Shown: positions 6,676-11,190 of the stretch, in pieces
Numbering within the stretch: the stretch's first letter is position 1
Layout: each line of letters opens with the position of its first letter
UHGV virus genome: UHGV-0364466
Direction: 5' to 3' (one strand)
DNA: 29,223 nt
Source: a virus
Translations under genes and position numbers: made by a program
The notes under the pieces: model-generated
Databases searched by the model: none
Seen by the model: only the letters and a program-made list of their open reading frames with translations
What the model was told of the DNA's origin: nothing

Positions 6676-8748
6676 TTACCAGCCTGTAATGTAGTTATCG
6701 CCCGCGTAAATATTCAGCCCCATACCATCCTCGGTGACACGGGAACTGGCCAGACGTAACCCCTCGCCAAGTTCGACGCGCAGCGAGGCTTCCGCATTCA
6801 CTTTTTGTTCCTGCGGCTCCTTATCCGGGGCCGTCCATTTCTGATACAGGTCGGTTACAAAACCGCCCAGATACTCCCCGGCGACACTGCCCAGCGTGGC
6901 ACCGGCAACCGTACCCAGCGGTCCGGCAAGGCTGCCAACGGCACCGCCGAGCCATGCACCGGCTGTACTGCCAATTGCGCCTGCTTTTTCATGGGTTGAC
7001 GCCTGCTCATCCATCAGGACGGGGGCAAGCTGGAGTGCCCCCATTACCGGGCCACCCAGGCGTGACAACGCACGACCGGCACCTTTCCCCATCCAGCCCA
7101 GCGCCCCGGCACCTTTTGTCACAACCCGACCGATCGCACTGCCTGCAAGTTTGTTTCCGATACCGGAAAACCACCCGCCAACAGCACGCCCGGCATCAGC
7201 CAGCTTTCTGACCGTTCCCGTAACCAGTTGCCCGGCAGCACTGCCTGCAAGCCTGCTCAGAAGACCGGATTTACCGGCTAAAGGTAATGGTGCAGGCCGT
7301 GCCGTTACCGGTACGCCGGGTGGGGGTAATGCCAGTACAGGGCGTGGTGCAGGTAATGCCAGCGGCTGTGGCCCGGACAGCAATAACGGCTGGCGGGGTA
7401 ACAGCGGGGCCATTCTTCCGCCGCTCCGTACGCGACGACCGCCGCCACTCCCGTAGCCACCAAATCCACGGGGCCAGTTGATGACAAACACACGCTGAAT
7501 GCCGATACCCTGCAACAGCGTCTCAGACGTCATGGCATCCGGGACCGGCAGACCTGCCTGCCCACGTTTGCGGTTTCGCATCCAGCGCCACATACGACGC
7601 CCGGTTTTAAACGGATAACTGGCAACCTGCCATGAGGGTTTTGCCACGGCCCAGCCTGCTCTCAGGGCTTTATTGGCAAGCCAGACAGACACCAGAACAG
7701 CAGCCAGTTTTTTCAGGCTGACAATATTCTGGTCAACCCATGCCAGCGCATCTTTACCCGGTTTCAGCCAGCGCCATAACTCCTGCGCCGCGATTTTTAC
7801 CGTTCTGAACGTGGTCAGAAATTTCTGACCAATGTTTTCTGCCAGTGCGTCAAGTTCCCCGGATTTATCCGCCATGTCGTGCCAGTTAAGCACCCGGCGC
7901 ATCTCGTTCTTGATTTCTTCAAAGGGGCCGCTGTTTGCCACCTTCGTGCGAAACTCAAGCAGGTTGCCCTCCATCTGGGCCATCATCCCGTCCCAGGAGT
8001 TCATGGCAGCCGCCTGTGCGCCTTTTGACTGCTCCAGCAGGGTCCGGAATACCGTCAGAATGGATTTCAGGCCCAGCTTGCCTTTTTCACCCAGCTTACG
8101 GATTTTTTTCTCATCCTCACCCGTTGCATCTGCCAGCACCTTGTAAACGTTGATACCGTAGCCGGTCAGCAGGTTGGCGTCCGCCGCCGTGATTTGCTGG
8201 CGGGCAAACATCTGTTTGAACTGTAACGATGCACCCTGTGCAGTGGGTAAATCCCAGCCATGCATCGCGCCCTGATTCTGTAGCATGGTGATGAACTGTT
8301 TTACCTGGGCATCAGTCATGCCAAACGCAGTTGATGTGCGGATCTCCTGCAGAACACCACCCAGCCCCCAGGTGGTTTCTTTTGCGTTCTGCTTCGCCCA
8401 CGCCATCATGGCCTGTGCTCTGGCCTTATCGCCGTGATAGAGCGAGTTCATGGCGATAATCTGCTGCTCACGCTGAGCGGCTGCACCAATAAACAGTTTA
8501 TTGGCGGTGTAACCCACGCCAGCGATACCCAGCGCCCCGGCTGACAGCATTCGGAATGTACGGGTTGACAGTGAACCCATTCTGTCAATGGCACCAGAAA
8601 CGCGCACAACCTCCATACGCAGGGCACGAAGGGAACTTTGCCCGCTACGGGACAGGACGTTTATCTGGTTCGAATACTGGCGGGAACGCCGGGAAAGATT
8701 GCCATTAAGATCAATAATGACAGACGCCTTTAAGCGTTTCCCGGTCAT
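6676..8748 (-). CDS. Tail tape measure protein (Mu gp42)
   Basis: 690 aa; Gly/Ala-rich repeats and a Pro-rich low-complexity segment; sits between chaperone and N; AGGAAA SD 6 nt before the ATG. Confidence 0.85.
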
Positions 8749-8892
8749 AGAGATTTCCTGATTTAACGGTGATATTGAGAGAGGGTTTTAGCCTGCTGGC
8801 AGTGCCGGAAAAAGCGGGACAGCGGGAGAGACAAGGCCCATTCCGGGCCACTTTTCAGAATAACGCCAATCGCTGTCGCCGCTTTCTCAATA

Positions 8893-9327
8893 TCATTCCG
8901 GCACCGCAGCCACTCGCCCCCGTTCTTGTGTCAGCGATGCCGCCACAGCCATGTCGTACATTTCTGTGGCCAGCGACAGACGCTGGAAGTCATCGACAGA
9001 CAGTTTACGAATCAGCGCCATCGACAACGGGCCTTTGATGCAGCCCACGCTGGCAATCTGTCGGCGCAGCATTTCCAGTCCCATCCGGGACGGGGAACTG
9101 ACCAGCACCGGACCTTCCTTGCTCATTACCAGCTTTTCAGCAGCCGCCTGGGCATCAATCAGATCGCCTGCGGTCAGTTCACGCAGCGTCACGTCATACT
9201 GCATTTCAGTCTCGTCACCGGTGCCGAACGGCAGGCCGTCTTTCAGTTTCAGCACGCCGGACTGAATTTCTGCCACAATGCTGTCATGCAGTTCCTGTGC
9301 TTCAGGACCTAAATTCATTTCGTCCAT
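8893..9327 (-). CDS. Tail assembly chaperone (Mu gp41-like)
   Basis: 144 aa acidic protein between tail tube and tape measure; ATG start verified. A 144-nt gap separates it from the tape measure (see frameshift finding). Confidence 0.6.
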   Translation of the reverse strand: MDEMNLGPEAQELHDSIVAEIQSGVLKLKDGLPFGTGDETEMQYDVTLRELTAGDLIDAQAAAEKLVMSKEGPVLVSSPSRMGLEMLRRQIASVGCIKGPLSMALIRKLSVDDFQRLSLATEMYDMAVAASLTQERGRVAAVPE

Positions 9328-9336
9328 TGTTTCCCC

Positions 9337-9693
9337 TTATGCAATGCGTTTGCTTTGTTTTGCCATCAGTACCAGCGAAATTTCGCCGCCGTCGTTTTTC
9401 GGTTCATCTGCCTGCCAGGCATTCGCCATCATCCAGGTTTCACCGGTGTCTGCCTGAAACTCTGCCGTGATGTTTTCCCAGCCGATGATTTCATCCAGAC
9501 CGATATCACCACCGCCCGGAATTTTGCATTCCAGCTTTGCGGCACGTGGTTTACCTTTCCAGCCATAAACCCGCGAGCCGGTCACTTCTTCACGGGTGAT
9601 GCCGGAAGGCGTGAAGGAGGCCCCTTCCATCGTTTCAAGCTCTATGCCATTGACACGGATGAACGCCACCCCCTGACGCTGATTTCCAGCCAT
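9337..9693 (-). CDS. Tail tube protein (Mu gp40 / M)
   Basis: 118 aa, directly downstream of sheath; ATG start verified. Confidence 0.8.
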   Translation of the reverse strand: MAGNQRQGVAFIRVNGIELETMEGASFTPSGITREEVTGSRVYGWKGKPRAAKLECKIPGGGDIGLDEIIGWENITAEFQADTGETWMMANAWQADEPKNDGGEISLVLMAKQSKRIA

Positions 9694-9702
9694 AAATGCT
9701 CC

Positions 9703-11190
9703 TTACAGAATGAACTGAACTTGTGCCGCGAAAATGCGGAACTGGTTAATCAGATTCGGGCCGCACAGCACATCAAGACGGTCTTTGTCGTCCTTGTTAC
9801 GTGCCACATACAGCTCCTCTTTGAACGTGTCGAAATCCTCGACCAGTCCGGCGTTTTCCCATTCTTCAAACAGTGCCAGCAGCTCCGTTTTGATCACGGA
9901 TGGCGTCACCACGGCCTGACCGGTGGCAAAGCGGGTGCCATCACTTGCCAGCTTGTAGTTCGGGAATTTCTGCGTGATGCGGGTTCGCAGCGAATAACGC
10001 AGATAACTCAGCGTGGCGATGGTATTCACGTTCAGATAAGACGGATCACTGTCACCGTACTTGTTTGTGCGGTACATCGTGATCATGCGTTCAATCTGCA
10101 TTTCACCACCATCATTCACGTTAAACGTGGAGATGCCGTCAAACAGCAGCGCATTACGTTCTGACCAGGTGAAACGATCCCCCACCGCAGGCGGCATTCT
10201 TCCGGGCAACGTCAGCGTCTGGAGAGGACGCGCCGGGTCGATGGAAAGCGCCTGGCTGGCAACGGCACACAGTGTGGCGGCGTACAGGTATGACGGTTCC
10301 GGTGCACCGGCAATCCCCATACAGGAGATCAGATGGTCATTACGACTGACACCAAACGTGGAAATATCCCCATACGTGCCGGACAGCACTGTCACGGCAA
10401 AACCATCAGCCTGATTGACCGGTCCCCAGCGTTCCTGCAATTCAGTGCGTAACAGATTCAGGTTCGGTTCATCGGTATAGGGCATCACAATATATTTGTA
10501 TTGCAGATCGCCCATTCCCGCGATACTTGCGCTGATATCCGGGTTGCCATTTTTCCCAGAGGCGGCTTTGAATGCCGTGATAATCCCGTAAGGGGTGGTT
10601 TCACCCGCGTAATAGTTCCAGCGCACGTCCACGGCAGATAATGCACCCGTAAATTTTGCACTCAGAACCACATCAGCATGAGTGTCATCATCTCCGCTGT
10701 CTGCGCGAACTTCTGCCGTCACCGGTAAATCCGGCTGGCCTTTGATTCGGGCAACCAGCAGGTCAGCCAGCGCCGCTCCCGTTGCACCTGCTGCGACAGA
10801 TACCGCCAGTCGCTGACCGGCAATGTAAGTCACAAGCGAGCCGTTTTCGCCTGCCGTTCCTGACAGTGAAATTTCACCGACAGCAACATTACCGGTGCCG
10901 TTCCCCTGCGGAATACACCACAGCTCCGCCACGCGGTTAGCGTTCAGGAATGCATCTGCCATCAGTGCCAGCATGGAACCCTGACCAAACGCCGCACTGG
11001 CCTGTGAGCCGGAACGGATACGGACAGGCACGTTTGGTGCCGCACTGGCTTTACTTCCGCTTTGCCCGAACATCAGCACACGCTGACGGGGTGCCGGTGT
11101 TCCGCTGACGGCATTACTGTTATCAAATTCGATATACGTCAGAGGAACGCGAACATCTGACGGGATCGCGTTAAATGAAATATCGCTCAT
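9703..11190 (-). CDS. Contractile tail sheath protein (Mu gp39 / L)
   Basis: 495 aa, [34 protein letters not shown]...; sheath family character; ATG start verified. Confidence 0.9.

What the first reader, a model, noticed from the sequence alone, without database searches (positions are those of the whole stretch)
8749..8930. Possible programmed translational frameshift extending the tail assembly chaperone across the gap before the tape measure gene
The chaperone ORF stops at 8893, leaving 144 nt before the tape measure start. The +1 frame opens 11 codons before the chaperone stop and stays open for 43 sense codons past it, closing 15 nt before the tape measure SD, so it fills the gap almost exactly. 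The overlap window contains CGG GGG CGA, a G-run flanked by rare Arg codons, which is a plausible slippery site. A -1 shift at the same G-run would give a shorter 23-codon extension. Tail chaperone genes of long-tailed phages commonly produce a frameshifted long form.
Basis: partly seen in the sequence, partly recalled or inferred. Interest (0 to 1): 0.4.

Follow-up and report, generated by a model that had tools for sequence, protein, structure and literature searches.

The report
Phage Mu tail-chaperone -2 frameshift site

Summary
The window is a phage Mu genome. It is 99.5% identical to AF083977 over this region, with genes on the minus strand. The chaperone gp41 ORF (9327..8893) ends 144 nt before the tape measure gene (8748..6676). 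The +1 (= -2) frame is open from 8930 to 8763 and fills the gap. CGG GGG CGA lies at 8922..8914 in the overlap. GenBank annotates exactly this in Mu as a 'verified -2 translational frameshift' (Mu_56, PMID 15469818). The literature calls it tandem -2 slippage on GG GGG CGA, for years the only known natural -2 frameshift, at about 2% efficiency. The whole cassette is base-for-base identical to Mu.

New comparative evidence agrees:
- The octamer GGGGGCGA, followed by an open -2-frame extension of 46-54 codons in all (31-47 of them past the chaperone stop) that ends at the tape measure start, is present in 87 of 95 sequences (94 related loci plus this window), down to 41% protein identity.
- Substitutions mark the -2 frame as the coding frame.
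- The -1 alternative is not conserved.

One possibly new item is a conserved 15-bp long-range stem that starts 3 nt after the shift site. It has modest covariation support and could be a stimulator. Verdict: real, correctly read, already known.

The parts
8893..9327 (-). gp41 tail assembly chaperone, the frame-0 short form (144 aa plus stop)
   Evidence: ORF. Pfam PF23746 Gp41_Mu, E=3.4e-34. phrog_508 tail assembly chaperone, E=2e-47. Annotated as Mu_41 in AF083977.
8914..8922 (-). Shift site CGG GGG CGA. The octamer GGGGGCGA is 8921..8914. GGG sits in the P site and CGA in the A site.
   Evidence: Sequence. Identical to Mu. Described as tandem -2 slippage on GG GGG CGA in PMC3458567. The octamer is conserved in 87 of 95 sequences (94 related loci plus this window).
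8763..8915 (-). Extension read in the -2 (= +1) frame after the slip. The first codon is GAG at 8915..8913 and the stop is TAA at 8765..8763. It gives the 188-aa long form FS-gp41. The frame itself is open from 8930.
   Evidence: phrog_12783, E=2e-30. End coordinate equals that of Mu_56. The peptide is alignable in 46 distinct versions. Synonymous versus nonsynonymous codon differences are 1717:1504 in this frame, against 622:2785 and 221:3227 in the other two.
8896..8910 (-). 5' arm of a candidate long-range stem. It starts 3 nt after the CGA codon and ends at the frame-0 stop.
   Evidence: MFE and ensemble folding give pair probabilities of about 1.0. The RNAalifold consensus predicts it. 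96.5% of cells are paired in 23 distinct sequences, with 3 pairs changed on both sides. Inferred, not shown to function.
8795..8810 (-). 3' arm of the candidate long-range stem, inside the extension (codons F R H C Q Q)
   Evidence: Third-codon-position entropy dips to about 0.4-0.5 here, against about 1.1 elsewhere in the extension (Mann-Whitney p=0.005).
8756..8759 (-). Shine-Dalgarno sequence (AGGA) of the tape measure gene, 3 nt after the extension stop
   Evidence: RBS annotated at the equivalent Mu position. Sequence.
6676..8748 (-). Tape measure protein gene (690 aa)
   Evidence: ORF. Pfam PF20155 TMP_3. Mu_42.
9337..9693 (-). Tail tube protein gene (118 aa), directly upstream of the chaperone
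   Evidence: Pfam PF10618 Tail_tube, E=4e-35. Mu_40.

Best explanation
This is the phage Mu G/GT-type tail chaperone recoding site.

Most ribosomes translate gp41 (144 aa) and stop at TGA 8895..8893. A small fraction slip two nucleotides backwards. The slip happens with tRNA-Gly on GGG (8919..8917) in the P site and the slowly decoded rare Arg codon CGA (8916..8914) in the A site. tRNA-Gly re-pairs perfectly with the first three Gs of the G5 run, and tRNA-Arg(ICG) re-pairs with GGC. Translation then continues in the -2 (= +1) frame for 50 more codons, from GAG at 8915 to TAA at 8765..8763. This gives a 188-aa fusion, FS-gp41.

By analogy with lambda gpG/gpGT and P2 E/E+E', the two forms are made at a fixed ratio and both are needed to assemble the tail around the tape measure protein.

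Shown in the literature for Mu: the shift occurs, its direction is -2, and its efficiency is about 2%.
Shown here: the window carries the identical cassette, and the cassette and its coding frame are conserved in relatives.
Inferred: the function of the extension, and any role of the downstream stem.
For: 1. Identity. The region is 99.5% identical to Mu and 100% identical to PhiR68_1. Only 2 nt differ from Mu in the 565-nt recoded gene, both about 230 nt upstream of the site.

2. Annotation. AF083977 Mu_56 is a two-piece CDS with the same start and end, noted as 'verified -2 translational frameshift in PMID 15469818'. UniProt P0DJY4 is 'Probable tail assembly protein FS-gp41'.

3. Literature.
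- Tandem -2 slippage on GG GGG CGA (PMC3458567).
- The only known natural -2 case at the time, at about 2.2% efficiency (PMC3498833).
- The site is listed in the Atkins 2016 review (PMC5009743).
- The 10-mer alone gives 14% -2/+1 shifting in a cell-free system (bioRxiv 10.1101/2025.10.02.679949).

4. Gene order sheath-tube-chaperone-tape measure is confirmed by Pfam.

5. Conservation.
- GGGGGCGA followed by an open -2-frame extension is present in 87 of 95 sequences (94 related loci plus this window), from 99% down to 41% protein identity.
- Hosts include Kluyvera, Vibrio, Aeromonas, Aliivibrio and Bilophila.
- The extension runs 31-47 codons past the frame-0 stop and ends within a few nt of the tape measure start.
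- G137 and R138 are invariant and R136 nearly so in the frame-0 protein. That fits a nucleotide-level constraint on all five Gs plus CGA. A -2 slip needs the first two Gs; a +1 slip does not.

6. Coding signature of the extension.
- Variable sites by codon position are 20/11/31.
- The synonymous excess is found only in the -2 frame.

7. The extension has no ATG, GTG or TTG start that could give an ORF of 30 aa or more in that frame.
Against: - The occurrence and direction of the shift rest on the cited literature and on annotation, and the original paper could not be read.
- Databases disagree on the junction residue. GenBank UIW09302.1 has ...ERGR-EWL... and UniProt P0DJY4 has ...ERGG-EWL.... 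So it cannot be confirmed here whether the slip is tandem or P-site-only.
- Four relatives have only four Gs (TCG GGG CGA or CAG GGG CGA) with the same frame arrangement. This weakens P-site re-pairing after a -2 slip and would suit a +1 slip as well.
Confidence: 0.93

Rival explanations
1. A +1 ribosomal slip: tRNA-Gly moves from GGG to GGC while the rare CGA codon waits in the A site. The product would be a 187-aa fusion with junction ...ERG-EWL...
For: - It reaches the same reading frame.
- CGA is a slow codon.
- Relatives with only four Gs keep the arrangement (L009, L050-L052).
- The cell-free reporter cannot distinguish -2 from +1.
Against: - The Mu annotation and three papers state -2, based on protein analysis.
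- All five Gs, including the two that only a -2 re-pairing needs, are conserved in 87 of 95 sequences, which makes R136 nearly invariant.
- The 187-aa proteins in databases come from assemblies with one G fewer, not from annotation of a +1 shift.
Confidence: 0.04
2. Transcriptional slippage: RNA polymerase adds two Gs or drops one G in the G5 run, and the altered mRNA is translated normally into the long form.
For: - A homopolymer run sits exactly at the frame junction.
- Adding two Gs would give ...ERGG-EWL..., which is the UniProt version of the junction.
Against: - Five Gs is short for productive polymerase slippage (general knowledge).
- The strictly conserved CGA after the run has no role in this model.
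- An Arg at the junction (GenBank version; tandem slippage) cannot arise this way.
- The literature treats the event as ribosomal.
Confidence: 0.02
3. The downstream ORF is a separate small gene ('41.5', as annotated in phage D108) that is translated from its own start.
For: D108 annotates a 48-aa protein here. That protein, and similar short proteins called in E. coli genomes, are in protein databases.
Against: - The D108 start corresponds to a CTG codon.
- There is no ATG, GTG or TTG start giving 30 aa or more in this frame.
- No Shine-Dalgarno-like sequence precedes it.
- The conserved element is the shift octamer at the 5' end of the frame, not a start site.
Confidence: 0.01

Closest known systems
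Phage Mu gp41 / FS-gp41 (Mu_41 / Mu_56; UniProt P0DJY4), the -2 programmed frameshift of Xu, Hendrix and Duda 2004
   Same: It is the same thing. Gene order is identical, the shift octamer and the extension are identical, and only 2 nt differ in the 565-nt gene.
   Different: No functional difference. Residue 56 is L here and M in Mu.
Lambda gpG/gpGT and P2 gpE/gpE+E' tail assembly chaperone frameshifts
   Same: - The gene sits between the tube or major tail gene and the tape measure gene.
- A short form and a C-terminally extended form are made from overlapping frames at a fixed low ratio.
- The extension ends at the tape measure start.
- There is a weak Pfam Phage_TAC_7 match (E, 41 or 14 family) at 24.2 bits, against a cut-off of 25.
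   Different: Those use a -1 slip on an X XXY YYZ heptamer. Here the slip is -2 on GG GGG CGA. There is no detectable sequence similarity to lambda gpG, and no solved structure matches by sequence.
Arterivirus nsp2TF and Trichomonas vaginalis virus 1 -2 frameshifts
   Same: A -2 direction in natural gene expression.
   Different: These are eukaryotic viruses with different slippery sequences and stimulators, and they are unrelated to tail assembly.

Membership tests
G/GT-type tail assembly chaperone frameshift (Xu et al. 2004) | The gene lies between the tail tube or major tail gene and the tape measure gene | tested here: met
   Sheath, tube, chaperone and tape measure genes were identified by Pfam in that order and match the Mu annotation.
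G/GT-type tail assembly chaperone frameshift (Xu et al. 2004) | A second frame overlaps the 3' end of the chaperone ORF, has no start of its own, and ends near the tape measure start | tested here: met
   The frame is open from 8930 to 8763, with a 35-nt overlap. Its stop is 14 nt before the tape measure ATG. No canonical start gives 30 aa or more.
G/GT-type tail assembly chaperone frameshift (Xu et al. 2004) | A slippery sequence within the overlap | tested here: met
   GGGGGCGA at 8921..8914 is identical to the published Mu site.
G/GT-type tail assembly chaperone frameshift (Xu et al. 2004) | The arrangement is conserved in relatives whose sequence has diverged | tested here: met
   87 of 95 sequences (94 related loci plus this window) have the octamer plus the extension. 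There are 46 distinct extension peptides. The coding signature is found only in the -2 frame.
G/GT-type tail assembly chaperone frameshift (Xu et al. 2004) | The fusion protein is actually produced and needed for tail assembly | not testable with these tools
   Production is reported as verified for Mu in the GenBank note and in reviews. Requirement for assembly is known for lambda, not tested for Mu here.
Pfam PF23746 Gp41_Mu / PHROG 508 tail assembly chaperone | Profile match above the curated threshold | tested here: met
   117.6 bits against a cut-off of 27. phrog_508 E=2e-47, and the extension matches phrog_12783 at E=2e-30.
Canonical -1 frameshift (X XXY YYZ heptamer) | A conserved, coding extension in the -1 frame | tested here: not met
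   The -1 frame closes after 12 codons here. In relatives it closes after 1-24 codons in most, and after 90 in the Bilophila group. The two frames other than the -2 frame give synonymous:nonsynonymous counts of 622:2785 and 221:3227.
prfB-type +1 frameshift | A stop or hungry codon in the A site plus a Shine-Dalgarno-like stimulator just upstream | tested here: inconclusive
   A rare CGA codon is present, but no Shine-Dalgarno-like sequence lies upstream. Conservation of all five Gs argues for -2. The direction cannot be measured here.

The most novel reading that the evidence does not exclude
The most novel reading concerns the 15-bp long-range stem (8910..8896 paired with 8810..8795, closing a loop of about 85 nt). 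It starts only 3 nt after the shift site and may be a functional part of the recoding signal in Mu-like enterobacterial phages. It could set the efficiency of the shift, or bias it towards -2 through the unusually short spacer. I found no description of such an element in the papers I could read.
Probability: 0.3. Interest if true: 0.4.

Novelty: already known. Interest (0 to 1): 0.12.

Why it matters
The Mu site is the textbook example of natural -2 ribosomal frameshifting in bacteria. It is also one member of the nearly universal two-form tail chaperone system of long-tailed phages. Finding it again confirms that the first-stage reading can recover true recoding sites from raw sequence, but it adds no new biology.

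- A survey showing that the exact octamer GGGGGCGA is kept across distant hosts.
- A candidate downstream stem with a short spacer.

Tried and rejected
1. The original paper (PMID 15469818) is not in the held library. Details of the protein evidence are therefore second-hand.
2. The -1 frame alternative was rejected. Its open length is variable and its substitution pattern is non-coding.
3. Independent initiation of a '41.5' gene was rejected for lack of a start codon or Shine-Dalgarno sequence.
4. There is no promoter and no convincing terminator in the gap. The one terminator-like hairpin (8849..8835) lies inside the extension and lacks a real T-run.
5. Rfam has no family here at gathering score. 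The only weak hits are meaningless (E=0.87 and 8.4).
6. No solved structure is similar by sequence.
7. The thermodynamic z-score of the region is unremarkable (-0.03 for 94 nt, -1.41 for 221 nt). The stem is therefore supported only by conservation, covariation and synonymous-site evidence.
8. The metagenome pattern scan returned mostly chance matches. After filtering, only about five further true relatives were gained.
9. A first codon-position count was contaminated by a second GGGGGCGA in the tube gene of two loci. It was redone.

Full report
**What is there.** The genes around the finding are on the minus strand.
- A 144-aa ORF runs 9327..8893 with stop TGA at 8895..8893.
- It follows a tail sheath gene (11190..9703) and a tail tube gene (9693..9337).
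- It precedes a 690-aa tape measure gene (8748..6676).
- Pfam confirms each of these: Phage_sheath_1, Tail_tube, Gp41_Mu at 117.6 bits, and TMP_3.
- The gap between the chaperone stop and the tape measure ATG is 144 nt.
- In the +1 frame a TGA at 8933..8931 is followed by 55 sense codons, down to TAA at 8765..8763.
- That frame overlaps the last 35 nt of the chaperone ORF, runs 43 codons past its stop, and closes 14 nt before the tape measure ATG.
- CGG GGG CGA is at 8922..8914.

The frame closes 3 nt before the Shine-Dalgarno sequence (AGGA 8759..8756), not 15 nt. The -1 alternative adds about 20 codons, not 23.

**What it is.** An 801-nt query over this region is 100% identical to Escherichia phage PhiR68_1 and 99.5% identical to phage Mu. 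In the current Mu record AF083977 the same stretch carries two CDS with the same start.
- Mu_41 is the tail assembly chaperone.
- Mu_56 is a two-piece CDS that ends at the position equivalent to window 8763. Its note reads 'verified -2 translational frameshift in PMID 15469818; tail assembly chaperone frameshift product'.

The 565-nt recoded gene differs between Mu and the window at two positions only (nt 166 and 177). The shift site and the whole extension are identical.

The literature describes the event as follows.
- PMC3458567: tandem -2 slippage on GG GGG CGA. The A-site tRNA-Arg (anticodon ICG) pairs better in the -2 frame than in the -1 frame.
- PMC5009743, a review: Mu is listed among the users of -2 frameshifting, and the G/GT system of tail assembly is explained.
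- A 2025 preprint: the Mu 10-mer alone gives 14% shifting into the -2/+1 frame in a purified cell-free system.

Homologues of the chaperone were collected and aligned. The alignment was used to fetch 14 genomic and 80 viral loci with 41-99% protein identity. Hosts include Kluyvera, Erwinia, Edwardsiella, Vibrio, Aliivibrio, Aeromonas and Bilophila.
[quoted passage not shown] That ORF runs 31-47 codons past the frame-0 stop. It ends just before, or slightly overlapping, the tape measure start.
- The 46 distinct extension peptides align over their whole length and share a hydrophobic pattern and an LP(L/I)RxL-like motif.
- In the frame-0 protein, G137 and R138 are invariant and R136 is nearly so. 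That is what a nucleotide constraint on CGG GGG CGA would produce.
- The first two Gs are needed only if the P-site tRNA re-pairs two bases back. Their conservation therefore favours -2 over +1.
- Among 20 distinct enterobacterial sequences, variable sites in the non-overlapping part of the extension fall 20/11/31 on codon positions 1/2/3 of the -2 frame. Synonymous versus nonsynonymous codon differences are 1717:1504 in that frame, against 622:2785 and 221:3227 in the other two.
- The -1 frame is open for a variable stretch past the stop: 1-24 codons in most loci and 90 in the Bilophila group.
- The extension frame contains no ATG, GTG or TTG that would give 30 aa or more. The D108 annotation of a separate '41.5' gene starts at a CTG codon.

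**Mechanism.** Ribosomes that decode GGG (8919..8917) in the P site meet the rare CGA codon in the A site. A few per cent slip back two nucleotides and continue with GAG (8915..8913). The result is a 188-aa protein with the gp41 body and a 50-residue C-terminal extension. The rest terminate at TGA and make the 144-aa gp41.

By analogy with lambda gpG/gpGT, the common part binds the tape measure protein and the extension recruits the tube subunit, and neither form ends up in the virion. This last step is inference for Mu.

**A database discrepancy.** GenBank UIW09302.1 reads ...ERGR-EWL... at the junction, which means Arg and a tandem slip after CGA is decoded. UniProt P0DJY4 reads ...ERGG-EWL..., which means Gly. 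The tandem-slippage description agrees with the GenBank version. I could not read the primary paper.

**A possibly new detail.** Folding the mRNA predicts a long-range stem between 8910..8896 and 8810..8795. The 5' arm starts 3 nt after CGA and ends at the frame-0 stop. The stem has 15 pairs and one bulge, with ensemble pair probabilities near 1.0 whatever flanks are included.
- RNAalifold predicts the same stem from 19 relatives.
- On 23 distinct sequences, 96.5% of cells are paired, against 18-56% when the partner is slid.
- Three pairs change on both sides: C-G to U-A, G-C to A-U, and G-C to A-U at two synonymous sites in L117. A fourth pair shows C-G, U-G and U-A.
- Third-codon-position entropy falls to 0.4-0.5 over the 3' arm, against about 1.1 elsewhere in the extension (Mann-Whitney p=0.005).
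- Across 23 clade representatives, the 24 nt after the site find a downstream partner better than shuffled controls do (mean z = -1.25). This is strong in the enterobacterial, Haemophilus-like and one Vibrio lineage and absent in others. Some other clades have local hairpins 4-7 nt downstream instead.
- A short spacer is what favours -2 over -1 in reporter studies (abstract of PMC3458567).

Against a necessary role: the region's overall folding energy is not unusual. The number of independent compensatory events is small. The 5' arm is conserved anyway because it is read in two frames. The bare 10-mer already shifts efficiently in vitro. I rate this as a candidate modulator, not a finding.

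**Variants seen in relatives.**
- Three loci (Kluyvera genomosp. 3, found twice, and Erwinia tracheiphila) and several database proteins of 187 or 199 aa have four Gs instead of five. The two frames are then fused. One of these loci has a second G-run deletion further on, so homopolymer sequencing errors or decaying prophages are likely.
- Four loci (Edwardsiella and relatives) have TCG GGG CGA or CAG GGG CGA with the normal two-frame arrangement. A -2 slip would re-pair less well there, and a +1 slip is conceivable.
- One locus has seven Gs.

**Verdict.** The feature is the known, experimentally verified Mu -2 frameshift. Novelty: already known. Interest is low, apart from the untested downstream stem.

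Noticed in passing
window 8910..8896 and 8810..8795 (minus strand): A 15-bp long-range stem starts 3 nt after the shift site. It is conserved in 23 distinct enterobacterial relatives, with a few compensatory changes and reduced synonymous-site variation over the 3' arm. It may be a frameshift stimulator or modulator. I found no mention of it in the papers I could read.
   Followed up: partly
window 8919..8913 (junction); proteins P0040 and P0041: GenBank UIW09302.1 gives the junction of the Mu long form as ERGR-EWL. UniProt P0DJY4 gives ERGG-EWL. The two databases therefore imply different slip mechanisms (tandem versus P-site-only) for the same protein.
   Followed up: partly
L006/L043 (Kluyvera genomosp. 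3, G-run at about 1883), L008 (Erwinia tracheiphila, about 1901); proteins P0001, P0002, P0007: The G-run has four Gs instead of five, so the chaperone and the extension are fused in one frame (187-199 aa proteins). L006 also lacks a G in a second G-run further on. These are probably homopolymer assembly errors or decaying prophages, but constitutive fusions are not excluded.
   Followed up: partly
L009/L052 (about 1872) and L050/L051 (about 1866): Edwardsiella-type relatives keep the two-frame arrangement, but the site is TCG GGG CGA or CAG GGG CGA with only four Gs. This weakens P-site re-pairing after a -2 slip, so the direction of shifting there (-2 or +1) is open.
   Followed up: no
L007, about 1869-1878: One relative (an Enterobacteriaceae MAG) has seven Gs before CGA (CAG GGG GGG CGA), with the same frame arrangement.
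   Followed up: no
L053-L063 (Haemophilus-like group), L064/L065, L081-L097, L014/L069-L075 (Bilophila): Other clades lack the Mu-type stem sequence but have their own structures shortly after GGGGGCGA. These include a GCAGCAG...CUGCUGC hairpin 6-7 nt downstream, a 12-bp hairpin 3 nt downstream in L064, and a long-range GAGACG...CGUCUC pairing in the Bilophila prophages.
   Followed up: partly
L010 and L042, tail tube gene 3' end (upstream of the chaperone): A second GGGGGCGA occurs near the end of the tube gene in two relatives (coding ...DGGEIS...). It is followed by no long alternative frame, so it looks like a chance occurrence. It shows that the octamer alone is not diagnostic.
   Followed up: yes
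window 8849..8835 (minus strand): A small GC-rich hairpin, GGCCCGGAAUGGGCC, lies inside the extension (coding GPEWA). The terminator scan flagged it, but it has no proper T-run. It is conserved in relatives, probably through the protein sequence.
   Followed up: partly
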